Shown here piece by piece: positions 466-51,780 of a stretch of DNA of 64,000 bases (positions are counted from its first letter, which is position 1; each line of letters begins with the position of its first letter). The DNA comes from an uncultured Candidatus Saccharibacteria bacterium. Lineage in GTDB: Bacteria > Patescibacteriota > Minisyncoccia > Phycocordibacterales > JAACPR01. Location: assembly GCA_964538855.1 (NCBI GenBank), contig CAZIEY010000001.1, positions 18,811 through 82,810 on the forward strand. The letters run 5' to 3'. Both the position numbers and the translations under genes were made by a program. The notes under the pieces are model-generated. The model was not told where the DNA came from, did not search any database, and saw nothing but the letters and a program-made list of their open reading frames with translations.

Positions 466-493
466 TTGACAAGTTCATAAGGGAGCGTATAAT
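466..493 (+). promoter_or_regulatory. Consensus sigma70 promoter TTGACA-16-TATAAT
   Basis: TTGACA at 466-471 and TATAAT at 488-493 are separated by 16 nt. The predicted transcription start is near 500. Confidence 0.55.
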
Positions 494-499
494 TTATAG

Positions 500-712
500 C
501 AGAGAGATATGAATGTTGCAGTTGAAAGGCTTTTGGCAAAGATTGTTTGATAATAGCTCGTTACAAAACGCCCTATTATCACTCATTTCTCTGTCACAAG
601 ACCCTTTCCTCACTTCTATCTCACCCACAGTCGCACCTCCCTGTTCTTTTTTCCCCGCGACTGTACCATTTTCAAACGCCCACCCCACCAGGTGCGCGTT
701 TTTATTTTTGTG
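500..712 (+). promoter_or_regulatory. Long pyrimidine/C-rich 5' leader ending in an intrinsic-terminator-like hairpin 20 nt before the cmk ATG; candidate attenuator or riboswitch-like leader
   Basis: The leader contains C-rich tracts (ccctttcctcacttctatctcacccacagtcgcacctccctgttcttttttcccc). The hairpin acgcccacc/ggtgcgcgt at about 677-699 is followed by a TTTTTATTTTT run. There is no room for another promoter before cmk. Confidence 0.4.
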
Positions 713-1325: not shown

Positions 1326-1338
1326 ATTATACATACCT

Positions 1339-1366
1339 TGACATACAGAACCTGTATAGTATAATG
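1339..1366 (+). promoter_or_regulatory. Consensus sigma70 promoter TTGACA-16-TATAAT immediately downstream of cmk
   Basis: TTGACA at 1339-1344 and TATAAT at 1361-1366. Confidence 0.55.
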
Positions 1367-1372
1367 AATAAA

Positions 1373-1606
1373 GGTGCATCGGATCTGCTGATGCAACAAG
1401 GGTAATCCACCAGGAAATACCCTCACTACAGACGACAGATTAGTTGTTGCCTGACAAGAACAACTACTACCTGAGGCCAAATTTCTACGCGTCGAACTTA
1501 CATTCGACTAACGGCGTGCAGAACCGAGGTCTCCTGTCTACAGCCCAAACCAATCAAGAACGCAGCTCTGAGACTGTGTGAGATACGGTCGTGGGCTGTA
1601 TTTTTT
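1373..1606 (+). ncRNA. Unclassified ~230-nt non-coding transcript (candidate structured sRNA) running from the consensus promoter to an intrinsic terminator
   Basis: No credible ORF. Local hairpins include gcatc/gatgc, gggta/taccc, tagttgtt/aacaacta and gtcgaa/ttcgac. A terminal helix cagccca...tgggctg is followed by a T8 run at about 1596-1606. It could not be matched by eye to tmRNA, RNase P, SRP or 6S consensus. Confidence 0.35.
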
Positions 1607-2062
1607 TTATTTTCTCCACTTTCGAAACACCTCGATACGATTCATTTCTTTATCAATCAAGGCTTGGAATTTTGCAAAATCAATATCTGATTCAAATTCT
1701 TTTTCTTTTGCAATTTTAACAGCGCGAGCATGAGCTTCTTCAGCACGCTTTACATCAATGTCACTCGCCAGTTCTGATCGAGTCGCCAGAATAATCACTT
1801 CAGTTACCCGCTGTTTTTTAACCGAGCTTTCACGAACTTCAACAACACCAGATGAAATGGCGAGCGGAATAATTTCGTTGTGATCTGGTTTTTTGATGCG
1901 AATCTCCCCCGTCTGTATCATAGTTACAAGCGGACGATGATTTGGCAAAATGGTAATTTCACCCGTTTGAGTCGGCACACTAATTTCGGTAATGTTGTCC
2001 TCATATACCACGCGTTCCGGCGTTATGATTTTCAATTTAATTATGTGGAGTAATTCAGCCAT
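1607..2062 (-). CDS. atpC: F-type ATP synthase epsilon subunit
   Basis: 151 aa. Its position at the end of the ATP synthase operon and its sequence fit an epsilon-like beta-sandwich. Confidence 0.85.
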   Translation of the reverse strand: MAELLHIIKLKIITPERVVYEDNITEISVPTQTGEITILPNHRPLVTMIQTGEIRIKKPDHNEIIPLAISSGVVEVRESSVKKQRVTEVIILATRSELASDIDVKRAEEAHARAVKIAKEKEFESDIDFAKFQALIDKEMNRIEVFRKWRK

Positions 2063-27706: not shown

Positions 27707-28887
27707 TATAACATTTCAATAGCTCTTCGCGCCATCTCGCCCATTTCGTCAGTTTCGATAATCTCAACGGAAATATCGCTCTTTGGTTCGTTAATGAACG
27801 CAAAACCATTCACATCATTTTGATTTAATTTCGCATCAAGCTTTACTCCGATCGCAGACAGACCCGCGCAAATTTTTGCACGCATTGGATGAGATCGTTC
27901 ACCAATTGTTCCCGTAAAAACAAGCAGATCGAGCCCGCCAAGAAGCATGAAGAAAGCCCCGATGTATTTTTGAATATGGTACGCGTAATTGTCGAGTGCA
28001 AGCGCCGAATCATGATCTCCGTGCGCCACATTATCGAGAAGCACACGCACATCGTCCGAGCTGTTGCTGATACCCTTGATACCACATTCGTAATACACAA
28101 AATCACGGATTTCTTTCACATTGAAATGCTCCAAATCTGTGATAGCGAGAAGTGCACCGGCGTCGATATCACCGACACGTGTCGACATAGTCAATCCTTC
28201 GAGGGGCGAATATCCCATTGTGGTGTCCAAACTTTGGCCGTTTTTGAGAGCAGTAATACTTGAACCGCCACCGAGATGGCACACAATGACACGAGACGGG
28301 ACTTTTCCGACTCGCTCCTTTATTTTATGCACCACCGAAGCGATTGAAATGCCGTGATATCCAAATCGATAGATATCGAATTCTTCGCGTACTTTTTTAG
28401 GAATGGCATAGATGCGCGCATATTCAGGAATCGTCTTGTGGAAACGACTATCAGAAATCGCGACGATACGGACGTCTGGCAAGCGCTTGTGGACTTGGTC
28501 AAATTCAGCCTTCATTTTATCAATGTGAAGTGGAGTTTGTTCATGAGCAATTTCGAGATTTTTCACAAATTCGCGATCAATGACACGATCGAATGTAAAG
28601 TAAGTTCCCGGCGCCACAACACGAAACACCGCAGCTTTAATATCGCTTTCTCGCATGACTTGTTTCTGAGTCACCATCAAATTAACTGCATGATCAAAAG
28701 CGTGCGCGTATTCGTTATCAGAAACTTTTGTTGTGCGTGCAACAGACTCACCCAGCTTTTCGTGAAGTTCGAACCCTTGCTCTGTTTTTTCATAATGAAA
28801 GGTAGCGATTTTTTTATCGCCTTCGTACAGCGCATATTTTTTCGACATACTACCACTGTTGATGATAATTATCTTTTCCATGTCCAT
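27706..28887 (-). CDS. ackA: Acetate (propionate/butyrate-family) kinase
   Basis: N-terminal IIINSGSMSKKYALY and HLGGGSSITA...EGLTMSTRVGDID blocks match ASKHA acetate kinases. Confidence 0.85.
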   Translation of the reverse strand: MDMEKIIIINSGSMSKKYALYEGDKKIATFHYEKTEQGFELHEKLGESVARTTKVSDNEYAHAFDHAVNLMVTQKQVMRESDIKAAVFRVVAPGTYFTFDRVIDREFVKNLEIAHEQTPLHIDKMKAEFDQVHKRLPDVRIVAISDSRFHKTIPEYARIYAIPKKVREEFDIYRFGYHGISIASVVHKIKERVGKVPSRVIVCHLGGGSSITALKNGQSLDTTMGYSPLEGLTMSTRVGDIDAGALLAITDLEHFNVKEIRDFVYYECGIKGISNSSDDVRVLLDNVAHGDHDSALALDNYAYHIQKYIGAFFMLLGGLDLLVFTGTIGERSHPMRAKICAGLSAIGVKLDAKLNQNDVNGFAFINEPKSDISVEIIETDEMGEMARRAIEML

Positions 28888-31241
28888 TCGTCGATTTCTT
28901 CCGGATCGACTCCGTTAACTTTGATAAACTCTCGATGTGCGACTAATTTCTGTTCGTATTTTGCGATGAGTGCAGCTGAAACTTTTTGATCAATCGTTTT
29001 GTGTTCGAGAAGCATTTTTGCAGCTTGAATTAACAAATCGTAACGGCTGGTGTGATTTCGCACATACATATCGAATGGTGTTGTTGTCGAACCGGATTCC
29101 TCGTAACCGTGCACAGAGAAACGAGATGGATGTTCTGCGTAATCAAACAAAATTTGTTTAATAGTTTGAGGATATCCGTGATAATTGATGATCACAGGTT
29201 TATCTTCTGTGAAATAATTTTTGAAATCGTTGTGACCAAGCACATTTCCACCCGAACCAAATCCCGACCATGACAAAGTCGTCACATTTACAAATCGACT
29301 ACGAACTTTTGGTAATTCTGTTTTAAGCAAATCGAGCGCGGCAAGTGCTTCTTTTGTCATATAATCTCCAATACCAACAAATACAATATCTGGTTTATCT
29401 TCGCTCGCAAATTTCCAGATTGCGAGACCTTCGTCAAGAGTTTTTTTGGCGAAATCAGTTGTGACCCAGCGAGGTTCCTGAGTTTTACCGGCGCAAATTA
29501 CATTGATTTGATTGTGTGACGAAAGTGTTTTTTCCAAAATAGCAAGCGTCGTGTTCCCGTCAGAAGGAAAATACACGTTGATGAAGTCACCTTCGCGTTG
29601 CAACATGTCATCCAAAAATCCTGGATTTTGATGAGAAAATCCGTTGTGTTCCTGACGCCAACCAGATGACGTCAAAATGTAGTTAAAAGAAGGCACAATT
29701 CCCCGCCACGAAATTTCCCGGGCCTGCTTCAGAAATTTCGCATATTGATCAGCCATGCTCGCCACAATTTGAATGAAAGCTTCGTACGAAGCAAACACAC
29801 CATGGCGTCCAGTCAATACGTAACCCTGCATTAAACCTTGTAACGAGTGTTCGCTAAGCATCTCCATAGAACGCCCGTTTGTTGCAATATCATTGTCCCA
29901 CTTTTCGAGAGGCCACATGAAAGCGCGCTTTGTCGTCTCGAAAATTTTATCGAGCTTGTTTGAATATGTTTCATCAGGTGAAAAAAATCTGAAGTTTTTA
30001 TTTTTCGCATTCAATTTGAATACGTCGTTCAGATAAGCACCTGCGCGAATCATTGAACTTGAGCCAATAGTACCTGGAACAAGCGCGTTTTCCTCGTGTT
30101 TTTCGAGCGCCGGTAATTCGAGAGGCTTCATAACGTCGGGTCCTCCGCGTGCATGTTTTGTTGCCCCCATCAAGTATCTGTCCTCTGGCAAGACAGACAA
30201 AATTTCCGCGATAAAGCCGTTTTTCCCGTCAAAAAGTTCTTCGAATTTATACGATTGTAGCCATTTCTCGAGAGCACGGCGTTCAATCGCATCAATGCGG
30301 GCTTCTTTGAGAGGGACCTGATGTGAATAATGATTTCCCTCCATTTTTTTACCGGCGACTTCTTTGACACCAGTCCATCCTTTTGGAGTGCGCAATACAA
30401 TCATCGGGAATCGGGGTTTTGTTGGACTACCAGTTTTGCTTTTTCGAGCAGTTGTTTGAATTGCACGAATTTCAGCATAGCAATTTTCGAGCGTCTCTTG
30501 CATTAATTTATAGATTCGGTCTTCGTCTTCTGGAGAACCATCAGTTTCGACAAAATGGGGTCTATATCCATAACCAGTAAAAAGATGAGTCAATTCCGTA
30601 TCATCCATACGAGCAAGCATTGTCGGGTTCGAAATTTTGTAACCATTCAAGTGCAAAATTGGTAAAACCGCGCCGTTTTCTGCCGGATCAACTAATTTAT
30701 TTAAGTGCCATGCCGTTGCGATTGGACCAGTTTCTGCTTCACCATCACCAATCATACAAGCAACAATCAAATCGGGATTATCGAGCACCGCTCCATACGA
30801 TGTAGAGAGAGAGTAGCCGAGTTCACCACCTTCCAAAATCACACCCGGAGCGGCTGGGCTCGAGTGGCTTGGATATCCATAAGGCCAACTGAATTTGTTC
30901 GCGATTTCTCTGATACCAGCATGAGTGCGTTGTGCCTGAGGATAAAATTTACCGAGAGTTCCTTCCAAAAAGAGGTTTGATTGAATAGCCGGAAAACCAT
31001 GACCAGGACCAAGCACAAACATCATATCAATTTTATGCTTCTTGATAAGATAGTTAAGATGTGCGTACACAAAGTTTATACCCGGACAAGTTCCCCAGTG
31101 ACCAAGTAAACGTTTTTTGATGTCATTCGACAATAAAGGTTTCTCTAGTAAGTAATTATCTTGTAAGAAAATTTGAATTGCGCTCAAGTAATTTGTTGCC
31201 CGGACGTACTTTTTAATGTTCTCTATATTTTTATCAATCAT
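28869..31241 (-). CDS. xfp: Xylulose-5-phosphate/fructose-6-phosphate phosphoketolase
   Basis: 790 aa. GHWGTCPG, EGGELGYS and GDGEAETGP thiamine-diphosphate phosphoketolase signature blocks. Confidence 0.93.
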   Translation of the reverse strand: MIDKNIENIKKYVRATNYLSAIQIFLQDNYLLEKPLLSNDIKKRLLGHWGTCPGINFVYAHLNYLIKKHKIDMMFVLGPGHGFPAIQSNLFLEGTLGKFYPQAQRTHAGIREIANKFSWPYGYPSHSSPAAPGVILEGGELGYSLSTSYGAVLDNPDLIVACMIGDGEAETGPIATAWHLNKLVDPAENGAVLPILHLNGYKISNPTMLARMDDTELTHLFTGYGYRPHFVETDGSPEDEDRIYKLMQETLENCYAEIRAIQTTARKSKTGSPTKPRFPMIVLRTPKGWTGVKEVAGKKMEGNHYSHQVPLKEARIDAIERRALEKWLQSYKFEELFDGKNGFIAEILSVLPEDRYLMGATKHARGGPDVMKPLELPALEKHEENALVPGTIGSSSMIRAGAYLNDVFKLNAKNKNFRFFSPDETYSNKLDKIFETTKRAFMWPLEKWDNDIATNGRSMEMLSEHSLQGLMQGYVLTGRHGVFASYEAFIQIVASMADQYAKFLKQAREISWRGIVPSFNYILTSSGWRQEHNGFSHQNPGFLDDMLQREGDFINVYFPSDGNTTLAILEKTLSSHNQINVICAGKTQEPRWVTTDFAKKTLDEGLAIWKFASEDKPDIVFVGIGDYMTKEALAALDLLKTELPKVRSRFVNVTTLSWSGFGSGGNVLGHNDFKNYFTEDKPVIINYHGYPQTIKQILFDYAEHPSRFSVHGYEESGSTTTPFDMYVRNHTSRYDLLIQAAKMLLEHKTIDQKVSAALIAKYEQKLVAHREFIKVNGVDPEEIDEWTWKR

Positions 31242-31590
31242 TTGGTCTTATTCTATCAAATATAAGCGAAACAAAGTCCAGTTTTCCCTACTTAGACAAT
31301 CAATTTGAAACTGTGAGACGTTTTAAAGTACGCCACAATTTTCTGCCAGCGAGATTTCCGAAGACCGAGGCGATTATTTCTATTTTGAAGATCTCTGAAC
31401 ATGTTTTTGTGAATTATTTTATTAATGATGAAATTCGATATTCGTACCCTTATTATATTCACAGGCTTTTCTTTGTCAAGTTTTCTAGTTTTATATGTAT
31501 GTGGATAACTCCTTTACAAATTCTAGAAAAGTACTACTATAAAGCTTAACCAAGGGGGTAGGAATAGAGATTAATTATTAAACACACACT

Positions 31591-34741: not shown

Positions 34742-35377
34742 TTAGTTATCTTGTAAAAGCACCGCGCGTGCAGGCGCACCGTCAGCGTCGGCGATATTCA
34801 ACGGAAACGCCGCAAGAGTATATGAACCCTCGGCAACATCACGCAAATTAACACCTTCTAAAATTGCGATATTTTTATCGAGCAACGCCGTGTGAGGACG
34901 ATTGTCTTTGCTTCCCTTTTGTTTAATCGAAAGATAATCGATTCCGACGAGCACCACGCCGCGATTCGCCAAAAATTCCGCAGCATCGCCTGACACATAC
35001 ACGAAATCAGAATAGAACGAGTCGTATCCGCGAGCTGAATTTGAAGTCTTGAATAAAATACGATCACCCGCCTGAATATCTTTTGATTCGAGGTCCGCGA
35101 CTTTTACTGCATCACCAGGGGCAAGATGCGACATATCAAAAACTTTTGCAGGACCATAAAAATGCGAGAGCGGAAGCGACGCAACATCACCCGCATCAAG
35201 CATCGCATGTTTCGGAGCATCAACGTGCGTACCTGTGTGCGAACCAAAAGAAATTCGCGAGACGTCAGATGAAGCTCCCTCTGCAATTTTTGAAACTTGT
35301 TCAATCACGACTGCCGGATTGTTCGGATACACTGTCATGCCGGTGCGAACAGGAATTGAAATATCGAGGATTTTCAT
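34742..35377 (-). CDS. Cyclase-family protein (kynurenine formamidase-like)
   Basis: HTGTHVDAPKH motif. Confidence 0.8.
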   Translation of the reverse strand: MKILDISIPVRTGMTVYPNNPAVVIEQVSKIAEGASSDVSRISFGSHTGTHVDAPKHAMLDAGDVASLPLSHFYGPAKVFDMSHLAPGDAVKVADLESKDIQAGDRILFKTSNSARGYDSFYSDFVYVSGDAAEFLANRGVVLVGIDYLSIKQKGSKDNRPHTALLDKNIAILEGVNLRDVAEGSYTLAAFPLNIADADGAPARAVLLQDN

Positions 35378-35412
35378 AGGAATATTATATCAAATTTTTA
35401 TGAAGTTTTTGC

Positions 35413-35442
35413 TTGACTTTATCTTTTTCCAGCTGGTATAAT
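35413..35442 (+). promoter_or_regulatory. Near-consensus promoter TTGACT-18-(TGg)TATAAT
   Basis: TTGACT at 35413-35418. Extended -10 TGGTATAAT at 35434-35442. Confidence 0.5.
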
Positions 35443-35448
35443 CATTGG

Positions 35449-35506
35449 GTAGATTTAGCCACCGAAAAAGCACGGCTCTGGGTTTCGTCCCTTGGCAGTG
35501 TTTTTT
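35449..35506 (+). ncRNA. Candidate ~58-nt sRNA running from the promoter to the terminator
   Basis: No ATG. The hairpin cacggctctggg/cccttggcagtg at 35471-35500 is followed by T6. The same hairpin serves as the terminator of the convergent NYN gene. Confidence 0.35.
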
Positions 35507-35510
35507 CATT

Positions 35511-35999
35511 TTAGGAACGAGATATGTTATCCCTTAATTGTTCCATACTAAATATCTTTTCTTTTGCTTCAAATTTTAATAACCGAGAACATCTTTGTAT
35601 GCTTGGAGTAAAAACTATCTTTAACTTTTTTCGTCTATACAAAAACTTCACAGTCGAATAAAAATCTCCGTCGCTTGTAAGCAATATCGCTCCGTCATAA
35701 TTATGAATTTTAGAGGCAACATATAACACCATGTCAGCATCACAATTACCCTTGATTAGTATTGATGTATCATTCATAACGGGTTTAAAAATAAGAATGT
35801 AACCACACCTCCGGAGAAAATCGTAAAACAAAGTATTCTTTTCGATATAGCCAATAAAGACGAAAACTTTATTGACGGTGTATTTGTCGAGCAAATATAG
35901 CATCAGTTTACGCCAGTCCAAGTCCCACCCCAACCGACGGATACCCATCGTAACATTCTGAGCATCAATAAAAGCGAAATTCTTGGGCTTTTTTAGCAT
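35511..35999 (-). CDS. NYN-domain (LabA-like, PIN-fold) protein
   Basis: FIDAQNV...GNCDADMV...LTSDGDF matches NYN/PIN acidic-residue blocks. Confidence 0.75.
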   Translation of the reverse strand: MLKKPKNFAFIDAQNVTMGIRRLGWDLDWRKLMLYLLDKYTVNKVFVFIGYIEKNTLFYDFLRRCGYILIFKPVMNDTSILIKGNCDADMVLYVASKIHNYDGAILLTSDGDFYSTVKFLYRRKKLKIVFTPSIQRCSRLLKFEAKEKIFSMEQLRDNISRS

Positions 36000-36110
36000 G
36001 TATGCATTATACTGATGCGAGCTAAAATATTTTTAAAGAAAAATTAAAGAAAAAATCAAGAAATTCTAAAAATTGATTGATGTCATGCAACTTGCTATCC
36101 TTATCATCAA

Positions 36111-36947
36111 ATGCCACCAAAGACGCCGATTCCATTCGTCCATAACAAATGCCTCATGCAGGCCTGCAGAAATCTGCGGATTCCGTTCACGATTTTGGAG
36201 GAACATGGGAATTTTTTGAAGCTCGAGATACACAGCAAAATTTTGTTTTTTGTGAATTTCAATGTGCCATGGAATAATTCGGGTGCCGAAAAAATCGCGC
36301 GCGACAAGGGCTACTCGTATCAACTTCTTCACGAACACGTGCGCATGCCGAAATCGATCGCCTATTTTGATCCGCGCTACACCGACGCGAAATACGAAGT
36401 CTATCGAAAATTTAAGAACATTCCGGAAATTGTGCGAGATATTTGCACACAATTCACATTTCCTTTTGTCATTAAAATGAATAGTGGTTCAAAAGCTCGT
36501 AACATGTTCATTTGCCACGACGCAGAAAAAGTCACTCGGGCCTTGCGCTGTATCTTTAATAAAAAAAGCCGCCATTACGATTATGCGGCAACTGCACAGG
36601 AGCTCATCGACATCGCCGACGAATTCCGTGTCATCATGTTTCGAGGCGAAATTATGCTCGTCTACAAGAAAAATCCGGCACGAGTGACGAAAATTAAATC
36701 GAACGCCAAGGCCGAAATTGTAACCGACAAAAAGCTACTCGCGAAATTGCAAAATTTTGTTCGGCCGATTTATGACATATCAAATATTGAATATGTCGCG
36801 CTTGATGTGGCGATGAATAAACAGAGTGAGCTCTGTCTATTTGAATTAAACGTCGCACCCGGTTTCGATTATTTTGTGCGTCATAACGGCGAGCAACCGC
36901 TTGTGAAAATGTTTGAGAGGATTTTGGAGAAAGCGATGGAGAAGTGA
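36111..36947 (+). CDS. ATP-grasp domain protein (RimK-like ligase fold; substrate unknown)
   Basis: FPFVIKMNSGSKARNMF is an ATP-grasp central-domain pattern. Size is about 280 aa. Confidence 0.55.
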   Translation: MPPKTPIPFVHNKCLMQACRNLRIPFTILEEHGNFLKLEIHSKILFFVNFNVPWNNSGAEKIARDKGYSYQLLHEHVRMPKSIAYFDPRYTDAKYEVYRKFKNIPEIVRDICTQFTFPFVIKMNSGSKARNMFICHDAEKVTRALRCIFNKKSRHYDYAATAQELIDIADEFRVIMFRGEIMLVYKKNPARVTKIKSNAKAEIVTDKKLLAKLQNFVRPIYDISNIEYVALDVAMNKQSELCLFELNVAPGFDYFVRHNGEQPLVKMFERILEKAMEK

Positions 36948-36948
36948 A

Positions 36949-51506: not shown

Positions 51507-51680
51507 TCAGCCGATGGCGATGTCCACCAAGATCATTGCTCCGCACAACGCTCCAAGGGCCATCATCGGCAACGACTTCACCGCTTTCCACAGCGTGACC
51601 TCAGGGTCGACGCGAGGGGCGGCTCGATAGCGCATGAGTCCTAGCGCTATCGCATAAACTCCCAGACAAAGAGCAGTCAT
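51507..51680 (-). CDS. 57-aa hydrophobic peptide (MTALCLGVYAIALGLMRYRAAPRVDPEVTLWKAVKSLPMMALGALCGAMILVDIAIG), GC-rich micro-gene
   Basis: GGAGG lies 5 nt before the ATG. A TTGACA-17-ATAATA promoter is upstream and a terminator downstream. It is absent from the ORF track because it is under 60 aa. Confidence 0.4.
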   Translation of the reverse strand: MTALCLGVYAIALGLMRYRAAPRVDPEVTLWKAVKSLPMMALGALCGAMILVDIAIG

Positions 51681-51780
51681 AAACACCTCCGGTTACCTCT
51701 ACTCCAATAATTTTGAAGTTTATGAGGTTGATAATATTATATATCATATAGCGATATTGTCAAGTATCTCAATGAGTTGC

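What the first reader, a model, noticed from the sequence alone, without database searches (positions are those of the whole stretch)
35413..35506. Tiny independent transcription unit: near-consensus extended -10 promoter to ~58-nt hairpin RNA to terminator, antisense-adjacent to the NYN nuclease gene end
TTGACT-18-TGGTATAAT gives a predicted start near 35449. The transcript contains no ATG and ends at a strong hairpin plus T6 (35471-35506). That hairpin is also the terminator of the convergent NYN-domain gene. It is a candidate trans-acting sRNA or a convergent-transcription regulator of the NYN gene.
Basis: seen in the sequence. Interest (0 to 1): 0.55.

Follow-up and report, generated by a model that had tools for sequence, protein, structure and literature searches.

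The report
Conserved small RNA partnering NYN nuclease
The tiny promoter-to-terminator unit is real. It is one copy of an apparently undescribed ~53-58 nt hairpin RNA gene that lies tail-to-tail with a NYN-family RNase gene in hundreds of loci from ultra-small (CPR/Patescibacteria) bacteria, which suggests an RNA-nuclease pair in which the RNA restrains or directs the enzyme.

Summary
TTGACT-18-TGgTATAAT (35413-35442, +) is followed by a 58-nt ATG-free transcript (35449-35506) that ends in a stable hairpin plus T6. The hairpin is flanked by A5, so it can also terminate the convergent NYN gene (35511-35999, -). The new result is comparative. All 78 NYN-homologue loci I searched, from unrelated genomic contexts, carry the same unit just past the NYN stop. 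It has a near-consensus promoter, a short 5' tail, and a hairpin with a conserved loop (GG-UUYYGU-CC) and 3' arm (GCGGUGC), followed by a U-run. The stem covaries: 11 of 17 pairs show compensatory changes. G.U pairs outnumber A.C pairs 107 to 4, which places the selected structure on the small-RNA strand. The RNA is 90% identical between two loci whose NYN genes are 71% identical. A distant, much larger NYN subfamily has the same layout with a different hairpin core. There is no Rfam match, no conserved protein neighbour, and I found no literature on it. My best reading is a dedicated RNA partner of the NYN RNase that acts like an antitoxin. Whether it binds the protein or acts as an antisense RNA on the NYN mRNA 3' end is unresolved, and no transcript has been observed.

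The parts
35413..35418 (+). -35 hexamer TTGACT of the small-RNA promoter
   Evidence: TTGAC at the equivalent place in 72 of 86 NYN ORFs examined.
35434..35442 (+). Extended -10, TGgTATAAT (18-nt spacer from the -35)
   Evidence: A TAnnnT hexamer 16-19 nt after TTGAC is conserved across loci, often as TGcTATAAT.
35449..35506 (+). Predicted 58-nt small RNA (start inferred 7 nt after the -10; end at T6)
   Evidence: Covariance-model hit at 35453-35506, 49.2 bits, E 4e-9, the only significant hit in the window.
35449..35464 (+). Single-stranded 5' tail GUAGAUUUAGCCACCG
   Evidence: Tail positions are partly conserved across loci, with invariant U and A at columns 8 and 13. The tail begins identically (cattggGUAGA) in the second NYN module from the same metagenome sample, which is probably the same genome. 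It has no complementarity to NYN mRNA beyond chance.
35465..35506 (+). Hairpin: A5, then 13-nt arm, loop, 12-nt arm, then U6; intrinsic terminator of the small RNA
   Evidence: The structure is supported by covariation in 62 homologues: 93.8% of cells paired, 11 of 17 pairs compensatory, 0 of 500 shuffles as good.
35480..35491 (+). Conserved hairpin tip GGG-UUUCGU-CCC (family consensus GG-UUYYGU-CC)
   Evidence: Loop columns 36-41 are invariant or restricted to Y. The tip is kept in the divergent paralogue L105, whose stem is otherwise different.
35465..35510 (-). 3' end of NYN mRNA: the complementary hairpin plus U5, beginning 10 nt after the stop codon; fully complementary to the small RNA hairpin
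   Evidence: Read directly from the sequence. In many homologous loci the NYN stop codon lies inside the hairpin (distance d = 27-45 nt from the end of the -10 hexamer to the NYN stop codon).
35511..35999 (-). NYN (LabA-like) RNase gene, 162 aa, probably leaderless (TATAAT-N6-ATG)
   Evidence: Pfam PF01936. AF2 model pLDDT 91.4. Closest folds are 2qip (TM 0.82) and the MARF1 NYN domain (TM 0.68). D12, N15, D87, D110 and D112 are invariant in 48 homologues.

Best explanation
35413-35506 is a genuine, independently transcribed small-RNA gene. It is the RNA half of a two-part module whose other half is the adjacent LabA-like NYN ribonuclease. A near-consensus sigma-70-type promoter should make a short, abundant RNA consisting of a 5' tail of 8-16 nt and a 13-bp hairpin that is also its terminator. 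I propose that this RNA keeps the nuclease in check, like an RNA antitoxin. The main route would be direct recognition: NYN binds (and possibly cleaves) the conserved hairpin tip and lower stem as a pseudo-substrate, which resembles type III logic. The RNA is also perfectly complementary to the 3' end of the NYN mRNA, and this overlap gives a second, antisense layer of control. If synthesis of the RNA stops, free NYN would cleave cellular or phage RNA. What the comparative evidence shows: the promoter, RNA structure, strand, and obligatory linkage to NYN. What is inferred: that the unit is transcribed, that NYN is toxic, that the RNA is an antagonist, and that it binds the protein.
For: Linkage:
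- All 78 NYN loci searched with covariance model R1 have the element next to NYN, at 39.7-75.8 bits (one is cut by a contig end). None of 17 control loci has it, and there is no second copy in the 64-kb window.
- Neighbouring proteins are not conserved. The largest neighbour cluster has 3 members across 77 loci.

Promoter: TTGAC-N16-19-TAnnnT is found in 72 of 86 NYN ORFs at a fixed distance from the hairpin.

RNA-level selection:
- 11 of 17 pairs show compensatory changes. 93.8% of cells are paired, against 47-63% in slid controls.
- G.U pairs number 107 against 4 A.C pairs, so the fold is selected on the small-RNA strand.
- The U-run is invariant, while the A-run that NYN termination would need is looser.
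- The RNA is 89.7% identical between the window and L024, against 70.9% for the NYN CDS.

Sequence constraints that antisense pairing does not need:
- The loop UUYYGU, the arm GCGGUGC and a U.C mismatch are conserved.
- The same loop is kept on a different stem in the second paralogue from the same sample.
- The tail is conserved but not complementary to NYN mRNA.

Co-divergence: a NYN subfamily at 32% identity (2878 proteins) has the same convergent promoter-RNA layout, with a different conserved core, AAACGGNNAAMUACCUAA.

Orientation independence: in L086 the RNA unit is inverted but intact, and in L089 the RNA is intact while NYN carries an in-frame stop.

Phage link: NYN plus RNA lies beside a terminase-like ORF, and one phage contig has an orphan type-2 hairpin.
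Against: - There are no expression data, no toxicity data and no binding data.
- The convergent 3' overlap is kept in about 97% of loci and in both subfamilies. A purely protein-binding RNA would not need this.
- The module lacks the defining type III features: no tandem repeats, and the RNA is not upstream of the toxin.
- NYN genes are rarely pseudogenised (about 2 of 77) and are very common in CPR. That fits a housekeeping enzyme as well as a toxin.
- The phage decoy argument rests on a single contig. About 0.6 chance matches are expected for the bare 18-nt core, although the flanking stem and U7 argue against chance.
Confidence: 0.45

Rival explanations
1. Pure cis-antisense control, like type I toxin-antitoxin systems. 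The small RNA acts only by pairing with the complementary 3' hairpin of the NYN mRNA, starting with a loop-loop kiss and extending to a duplex. This triggers RNase III or 3' exonuclease decay, as with txpA/RatA or bsrG/SR4. Alternatively it stabilises the mRNA, as with GadY/gadX.
For: The convergent overlap with a shared terminator is nearly universal in both NYN subfamilies. The NYN stop codon often lies inside the hairpin. The architecture matches par of pAD1, where converging RNA I and RNA II share a terminator, and matches the type I loci of Gram-positive bacteria generally (PMC4147584). A strong promoter would give an excess of antisense RNA.
Against: Antisense complementarity is automatic and cannot explain several observations:
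- the conserved loop, 3' arm and tail;
- the excess of G.U pairs on one strand;
- the RNA evolving more slowly than the CDS;
- the same loop appearing in two paralogous modules from one sample;
- retention of an intact promoter and hairpin after inversion in L086.

The tail shows no pairing to the NYN start region or to any other part of the mRNA, unlike the DRa/DRb repeats of RNA II. The loop has no YUNR U-turn motif.
Confidence: 0.25
2. A ribonucleoprotein rather than a toxin-antitoxin pair. NYN and the hairpin RNA form a housekeeping or defence RNP of CPR bacteria. The RNA would be a cofactor, guide or scaffold (the variable 5' tail could select targets), or the dedicated substrate that NYN matures.
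For: The family is very large and widespread in CPR (490 relatives in one scan; 2878 proteins in the sister clade). It lies among housekeeping genes such as aminoacyl-tRNA synthetases, RuvA/RuvB and tRNA genes. NYN is rarely disrupted. In this genome, consensus promoters also drive other apparent stable RNAs. The RNA core co-diverges with the NYN subfamily. The hairpin tip GG-UUC..-CC loosely resembles a tRNA T-arm, and a stem of about 12-13 bp with a 5' leader resembles an RNase P minihelix substrate. This resemblance is my own reading and was not tested.
Against: The 5' tail is only 8-16 nt and is largely conserved rather than hypervariable. The convergent overlap would be unexplained. One sample contains two divergent copies, one locus has a tandem duplicate (L038), and copies are borne on phage contigs. 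These features are more typical of selfish or defence modules.
Confidence: 0.2
3. No dedicated function. The hairpin is simply the NYN terminator, and the promoter match is fortuitous or is pervasive antisense noise.
For: AT-rich intergenic DNA produces -10-like hexamers easily. The general promoter scan finds no more sites than shuffles do (6 against 7.7).
Against: The full TTGACN-N16-19-TATAAT pattern is about 40-fold enriched in the window. It recurs at the same offset from the hairpin in 72 of 86 homologous ORFs, although the spacer sequences are unrelated. Terminator hairpins are not normally conserved in sequence at about 50% protein identity. The G.U asymmetry favours the non-NYN strand.
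Confidence: 0.02
4. The conserved sequence encodes a small peptide on the NYN strand that is translationally coupled to NYN through an ATGA overlap. This would be the mini-ORF MKKHR..., which is 35390-35509 (-) in the window.
For: In the window and in 32 other loci an ATG overlaps or directly follows the NYN stop, and the peptides begin MKKHR.
Against: Only 33 of 72 distinct loci have the ATG. ORF lengths range from 5 to 56 aa with unrelated tails. The variation follows base pairing and G.U rules on the opposite strand, not codon periodicity.
Confidence: 0.01

Closest known systems
[quoted passage not shown]
   Same: [quoted passage not shown] The antitoxin is a very short RNA made of a 5' tail plus the shared terminator hairpin (PMC4147584; the ~65-nt size of RNA II is from my own knowledge).
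   Different: The 'toxin' here is a 162-aa NYN RNase, not a 33-aa membrane peptide. The tail has no complementarity to the partner mRNA start region. The loop and stem sequence are conserved across very divergent loci. There is no YUNR motif.
txpA/RatA and bsrG/SR4 of Bacillus subtilis (type I systems with 3' overlap)
   Same: The genes are convergent with 3' overlap. The proposed outcome is RNase III-dependent decay of the toxin mRNA (PMC4147584).
   Different: The overlap there is 75-120 nt and the antitoxins are about 200 nt. The overlap here is about 43 nt, all of it terminator hairpin. Those toxins are small hydrophobic peptides.
ToxIN, AbiQ and other type III toxin-antitoxin systems
   Same: An endoribonuclease toxin is neutralised by an abundant cognate structured RNA that it binds as a (pseudo-)substrate. 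These systems are linked to phage defence, and phages can carry antitoxin mimics (the mimic point is my own knowledge; the rest is from PMC4147584).
   Different: ToxI is an array of 36-nt tandem repeats upstream of toxN in one operon, with a terminator between them. Here a single hairpin RNA has its own promoter and lies downstream of and convergent to the gene. NYN has a PIN-like fold, not the ToxN/AbiQ fold.
SymE/SymR and RalR/RalA (type I systems whose toxins are nuclease-like proteins)
   Same: They show that an RNA antitoxin can control a nuclease-type protein rather than a membrane peptide (PMC1891008; PMC4041452; listed).
   Different: SymR overlaps the 5' end of symE. RalA is trans-encoded with 16 nt of complementarity and needs Hfq. 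Neither shares a terminator with its target, and neither partner is a NYN protein.
LabA-like NYN proteins (PF01936 / COG1432; PDB 2qip; MARF1 NYN domain)
   Same: The protein partner belongs to this family by sequence and by predicted fold.
   Different: No RNA partner has been described for the family. A 2017 survey states that bacterial NYN proteins had not been studied functionally (PMC5499597). Alphaproteobacterial plasmid homologues at 25-30% identity show no such unit.

Membership tests
Sigma-70-type promoter | -35 TTGACA-like and -10 TATAAT-like hexamers 16-19 bp apart, with an optional TGn extension | tested here: met
   11 of 12 matches plus TG. The pattern is enriched 5 against 0.13 in the window. 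It is conserved in position in 72 of 86 homologous ORFs.
Sigma-70-type promoter | Transcription actually initiates there | not testable with these tools
   No expression data are available.
Intrinsic (bidirectional) terminator | A G+C-rich hairpin followed by a U-tract, on both strands | tested here: met
   A5-hairpin-T6, -24.7 kcal/mol. Across homologues the U-tract on the small-RNA strand is invariant, while the tract on the NYN strand is weaker and absent in type-2 loci.
Any Rfam 15 RNA family | Covariance-model score at or above the family's gathering threshold | tested here: not met
   No hits in the window at gathering threshold. Only chance-level hits (E 1.9-8.7) in 35300-35650. Nothing except tRNAs in seven type-1 and type-2 loci.
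tRNA / tmRNA | Cloverleaf or tmRNA detected by ARAGORN | tested here: not met
   No genes found in the window.
Type I toxin-antitoxin system (3'-overlap class) | An antisense RNA complementary to the toxin mRNA, convergent, with overlapping 3' ends | tested here: met
   The hairpin region of at least 43 nt is shared by both predicted transcripts. The layout is conserved.
Type I toxin-antitoxin system (3'-overlap class) | The toxin is a small (under ~60 aa) hydrophobic peptide | tested here: not met
   The partner is a 162-aa soluble NYN-fold protein. SymE and RalR are known exceptions.
Type I toxin-antitoxin system (par-like) | The antitoxin 5' region pairs with the toxin translation-initiation region | tested here: not met
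   Cognate -7.12 against non-cognate -7.24 kcal/mol, p = 0.65. Against shuffled tails the mean z is +0.59, and 0 of 55 loci have z below -2.
Type I or type III toxin-antitoxin system | The protein is toxic and the RNA neutralises it | not testable with these tools
   This needs expression experiments.
Type III toxin-antitoxin system (ToxIN, CptIN, TenpIN) | The antitoxin is an array of tandem repeats upstream of the toxin in one operon, separated from it by a terminator | tested here: not met
   A single hairpin with its own promoter lies downstream and convergent. Two loci carry a second, diverged copy of the RNA unit next to the first, and one carries a tandem duplicate of the whole module.
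Type III toxin-antitoxin system (ToxIN, CptIN, TenpIN) | The toxin has the ToxN/AbiQ fold and binds or processes its RNA | tested here: not met
   The fold is NYN/PIN-like (2qip, MARF1). Binding was not testable.
NYN / LabA-like (PF01936) | Pfam domain match above threshold, the NYN fold, and conserved acidic active-site residues | tested here: met
   45 bits against a cutoff of 24.2. TM 0.82 to 2qip. D12, D87, D110 and D112 are invariant.

The most novel reading that the evidence does not exclude
NYN-plus-hairpin-RNA may be a previously unrecognised and very widespread class of RNA-protein module in CPR/Patescibacteria and their phages. A single-hairpin RNA with its own consensus promoter would specifically bind and silence, or alternatively guide, a LabA-like NYN RNase. 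That would be a new architecture for RNA-antitoxin or abortive-infection systems, with at least two RNA families that co-diverge with NYN subfamilies and with phage-encoded orphan decoys. It would also give the first functional handle on bacterial LabA-like NYN proteins.
Probability: 0.4. Interest if true: 0.85.

Novelty: new variant of a known kind. Interest (0 to 1): 0.72.

Why it matters
Bacterial LabA-like NYN proteins are abundant, but they had not been characterised functionally as of the 2017 PIN-superfamily survey (PMC5499597). CPR bacteria have almost no described regulatory RNAs. This finding offers four things:
- a conserved RNA family that can be searched with a covariance model and has no Rfam entry;
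- a testable two-component system (one 162-aa protein and one ~55-nt RNA) that can be rebuilt in E. coli or in vitro;
- a natural case for separating antisense from protein-binding modes of RNA antitoxins, using the inverted and orphan copies and the two RNA types;
- a possible RNA-based defence and counter-defence axis between CPR bacteria and their phages.

It also shows that near-consensus sigma-70-type promoters mark stable-RNA genes in this lineage, which is useful for annotating CPR genomes.

Tried and rejected
- Known RNA families. Rfam at gathering and at permissive thresholds, and ARAGORN, found nothing.
- Repeats of the 31-nt hairpin elsewhere in the window. None found. Covariance-model scan of the window with filters off: only the one site.
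- The promoter drives the cyclase. Rejected on orientation and because the cyclase has its own TGaTATAAT-N6-ATG.
- A conserved third gene such as the divergent ATP-grasp gene at 36111-36947. Rejected: no neighbour cluster exceeds 3 of 77 loci. The closest cyclase relative, L004, lacks NYN, the ATP-grasp gene and the RNA altogether.
- The 5' tail pairs with the NYN start region or elsewhere in the mRNA. Rejected.
- A small peptide on either strand. The RNA has no ATG in the window. The MKKHR mini-ORF on the NYN strand is present in only 33 of 72 loci, with lengths of 5-56 aa.
- Type-1 RNA in viral contigs. One strict pattern gave no matches. A looser pattern gave 18 matches, all rejected by the covariance model.
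- NYN in INPHARED phages. None found.
- Extension to alphaproteobacterial plasmid NYN genes. No promoter-hairpin unit by simple scans.
- PADLOC. Only a weak partial hit to a 310-aa LabA-like model. NCBIfam found nothing for NYN.
- Literature searches for NYN with small RNA, antitoxin, CPR or defence. Nothing relevant.
- I could not fetch the NCBI copy of the second paralogue P0009. I used its 90% cluster mate P0098 instead.

Full report
**1. The observation**

The + strand reads TTGACT (35413-18), an 18-nt spacer, then TGgTATAAT (35434-42). The consensus scan scores it 11 of 12 with a TG extension. The stricter pattern TTGACN-N16-19-TATAAT occurs five times in the window against 0.13 expected, and no shuffle reaches five. 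Near-consensus promoters are therefore a real feature of this genome.

Seven bases after the -10 the predicted transcript starts at G35449. It is 58 nt long, has no ATG, and ends in a hairpin plus T6 (35465-35506). The fold has an MFE of -24.7 kcal/mol and z = -3.75. A5 precedes the stem, so on the minus strand the same sequence reads as hairpin plus U5, beginning 10 nt after the stop codon of the NYN gene (35511-35999; PF01936).

One detail needs correcting. NYN and the cyclase (34742-35377) are both on the minus strand. The cyclase has its own TGaTATAAT six bases before its ATG, on the minus strand. The + strand promoter therefore cannot serve the cyclase.

**2. What it is**

Rfam 15 and ARAGORN find nothing here.

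The window comes from a Saccharibacteria-like CPR bacterium. The nearest cyclase homologue (70% identity) is in a Saccharibacteria MAG. There the 6-phosphogluconate dehydrogenase gene abuts the cyclase directly, so NYN, the ATP-grasp gene and the small RNA are all absent.

The decisive result came from following NYN instead of the cyclase. NYN homologues at 71% identity (L024) and 59% identity (L021, flanked by an ABC transporter and a Band_7 gene) carry the same arrangement on the opposite strand, just past their stop codons. The arrangement is TTGACW, then 16-18 nt, then TATAMT, about 6 nt, a short tail, an A-run, a hairpin with tip GGUUCCGUCC, and a U-run.

A metagenome scan with a NYN alignment found 490 relatives, of which the best 80 were kept. 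In 72 of 86 NYN ORFs a TTGAC-N16-19-TAnnnT promoter lies at the expected place. Most of the remaining cases have a slightly degenerate promoter or are cut by a contig end.

Sixty-two distinct RNA sequences, median length 53 nt, align well. The consensus is GnAUnnAUAnGAAAAAGCACUUCUUAAGGUUUCGUCCUUnAGCGGUGCUUUUU.

**3. Evidence that this is a selected RNA**

- *Structure.* For the 17-pair hairpin, 93.8% of cells form standard pairs, against 47-63% when the partner columns are slid. Eleven pairs show compensatory double changes. No shuffle out of 500 reaches the observed values. RNAalifold independently predicts the same helix.
- *Strand.* G.U pairs outnumber A.C combinations 107 to 4. On the opposite strand every G.U would be a C.A mismatch. 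The fold is therefore maintained on the small-RNA strand, which is + in the window, and not on the NYN mRNA strand. Consistent with this, the U-run after the hairpin is invariant, whereas the A-run that would supply a U-tract for NYN termination is looser.
- *Rate.* Between the window and L024 the RNA is 89.7% identical. The NYN coding sequence is 70.9% identical, with third codon positions at 46%, and the promoter spacer is 60%.
- *Specificity of the linkage.* Covariance model R1 hits the window once, at 35453-35506 (49.2 bits, E 4e-9). It hits next to NYN in all 78 NYN loci searched, at 39.7-75.8 bits, with one hit cut by a contig end. It hits none of 17 control loci. The model was built from 62 of these sequences, so those hits follow by construction. 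The roughly 16 other NYN loci and the negative controls are the informative part.

**4. The module has two parts only**

Flanking genes are unrelated from locus to locus. The largest neighbour cluster has three members in 77 loci, and the neighbours are aminoacyl-tRNA synthetases, RuvA, a sigma factor and the like. The divergent ATP-grasp gene in the window is therefore not part of the module.

The same metagenome sample yields a second NYN paralogue (57% identity, L105) with its own unit, TTGACC-18-TATAAT-cattggGUAGA.... Its stem is different, but the tip GGUUCCGUCC is the same. This paralogue is probably in the same genome, because the two proteins are recorded on contigs of identical length (388,209 nt).

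Further observations:
- L038 has a tandem duplicate of the whole module.
- L094 and L066 each have a second, diverged RNA unit beside the first.
- In L086 and L089 the whole RNA unit is inverted, so it lies co-directional with and downstream of NYN, yet the promoter and hairpin are kept. L089 also carries an in-frame stop in NYN.

**5. A sister family**

A distant NYN (32% identity), on a viral contig beside a terminase-like ORF, also has a convergent TTGACT-17-TGcTATAAT promoter. It drives a ~55-nt RNA with a different core. That NYN subfamily is much larger, with 2878 proteins at E <= 1e-10, and some are labelled Saccharibacteria or Nomurabacteria.

All four further loci sampled (51-72% identity, with different neighbours) carry the same layout. 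They share the conserved loop AAACGGNNAAMUACCUAA inside a variable stem. Their 5' tails (AUUACGACGAAG) resemble some type-1 tails (AUCACGACGAAA), so the two RNA families appear homologous and to have diverged along with their NYN partners. Neither family is in Rfam.

Type-2 hairpins lack the upstream A-run. In those loci the NYN mRNA would have to read through the RNA gene.

One phage contig without NYN (L119) carries an orphan type-2 hairpin, AGUUCC-AAACGGCUAACUACCUAA-GGAGCU-U7. From the hit rate of a control pattern I expect about 0.6 chance matches to the bare core. The flanking complementary arms and the U-run make chance unlikely, but this is still a single case.

**6. The protein**

The AF2 model is confident, with pLDDT 91.4. 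Its closest structural matches are the LabA-like protein 2qip (TM 0.82) and the MARF1 NYN endoribonuclease domain (TM 0.68). D12, N15, D87, D110 and D112 are invariant in 48 homologues, which is consistent with an active metal-dependent nuclease (inference). The 2017 survey of the PIN-like superfamily notes that bacterial NYN proteins had not been studied functionally (PMC5499597).

**7. How it most likely works**

Comparison shows a conserved small-RNA gene that is obligatorily linked to NYN and selected as a structured RNA on its own strand. What it does is inference.

The architecture is that of type I loci with 3' overlap. The closest is par of pAD1, whose converging RNAs share a terminator (PMC4147584). 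Antisense pairing alone, however, does not explain these points:
- the conserved loop, 3' arm, U.C mismatch and tail;
- the G.U strand bias;
- the RNA evolving more slowly than the gene;
- the shared loop in two paralogous modules from one sample;
- retention of the unit after inversion.

The tail does not pair with the NYN start region (cognate -7.12 against non-cognate -7.24 kcal/mol, p = 0.65). It does not pair anywhere else in the mRNA better than shuffled tails do (mean z +0.59).

The only other constant component is the NYN protein, and the RNA core changes when the NYN subfamily changes. I therefore favour direct recognition of the hairpin by NYN, with the RNA acting as an abundant inhibitor or pseudo-substrate. 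This resembles type III logic with a new architecture. The 3' antisense overlap would be a second layer of control or a legacy of ancestry. My confidence in this reading is 0.45. The rivals are pure antisense control (0.25), an RNP in which the RNA is a cofactor, guide or substrate (0.2), no function (0.02), and a coupled mini-ORF (0.01; only 33 of 72 loci have the ATG and the lengths are 5-56 aa).

**8. Novelty and verdict**

I found no Rfam family, no paper in the searchable library, and no defence-system model beyond a weak NYN domain hit that describes this RNA or its pairing with NYN.

It is best filed as a new variant of a known kind: an RNA antagonist of a nuclease, or a cis-encoded small RNA. 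It fails the defining features of both type I systems (a peptide toxin; tail pairing with the translation-initiation region) and type III systems (a repeat array upstream; the ToxN fold).

The main caveat is that every conclusion rests on sequence. Transcription, toxicity and binding are all untested.

Noticed in passing
window 1338-1610 (+): TTGACA-16-TATAAT (1338-1365) drives a ~239-nt apparently non-coding transcript that ends in a hairpin plus T8. It lies between convergent genes. MFE is -78.9 kcal/mol, z = -4.34, and 0 of 200 shuffles fold as well. There is no Rfam hit even at E <= 1. It is a candidate novel structured RNA.
   Followed up: partly
window 466-712 (+): TTGACA-16-TATAAT (466-493) is followed by ~200 nt without a long ORF and by a terminator-like hairpin near 690-712, just before the gene at 732. 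This could be another small RNA or a long regulated leader. No Rfam hit.
   Followed up: partly
window, genome-wide (e.g. 35377-, 35999-, 34711-, 40973-, 16364+): 18 of 67 likely genes have a TAnnnT hexamer (at least 5 of 6 matches) 5-8 nt upstream of an ATG start, against 3 of 358 internal ATGs. Leaderless mRNAs appear common in this organism. The cyclase, NYN and the PGI-like gene (from its second Met) are among them.
   Followed up: partly
window 35378-36948 compared with L004 3077-4633: In the closest genome found (cyclase 70% identical), the 6PGD gene directly abuts the cyclase. The ~1.57-kb segment holding the ATP-grasp gene (36111-36947, +), NYN and the small RNA is therefore an insertion in the window lineage or a deletion in the other.
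   Followed up: partly
window 51507-51763 (-): A consensus promoter (51763-51736) precedes a small ORF of ~58 aa that has an SD sequence and encodes a hydrophobic protein (MTALCLGVYAIALGLMRY...). The ORF is followed by a strong terminator. It falls below the ORF size cutoffs I used elsewhere.
   Followed up: no
window 31241-31479 (-): A consensus promoter (31479-31452) lies ~210 nt upstream of the 790-aa gene at 28869-31241. This would be a long AT-rich leader of unknown role.
   Followed up: no
L086 1996-2096 and L089 1640-1735: The whole small-RNA unit (promoter to terminator) is inverted relative to NYN, yet it is intact in both loci despite sequence divergence between them. NYN in L089 has an in-frame TAA.
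   Followed up: partly
L094 2093-2185 (-) and L066 1534-1600 (-): A second, diverged copy of the small-RNA unit lies immediately upstream of the NYN-linked one (31-35 bits against R1). These are either orphan RNA copies or remnants of a lost second module. L038 has an exact tandem duplicate of the whole module.
   Followed up: partly
L119 6580-6630 (+) (IMG/VR contig with an HNH gene): A phage contig without a NYN gene carries a type-2-like hairpin (conserved loop AAACGGCUAACUACCUAA, a 6-bp stem and U7) right after a small gene. It may be a phage decoy for the NYN system, comparable to pseudo-ToxI.
   Followed up: partly
L105 3654-3724 and L114 882-965: A tRNA gene lies directly beside the small-RNA promoter in two unrelated NYN modules. 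tRNA genes are common integration sites, but no integrase was looked for.
   Followed up: no
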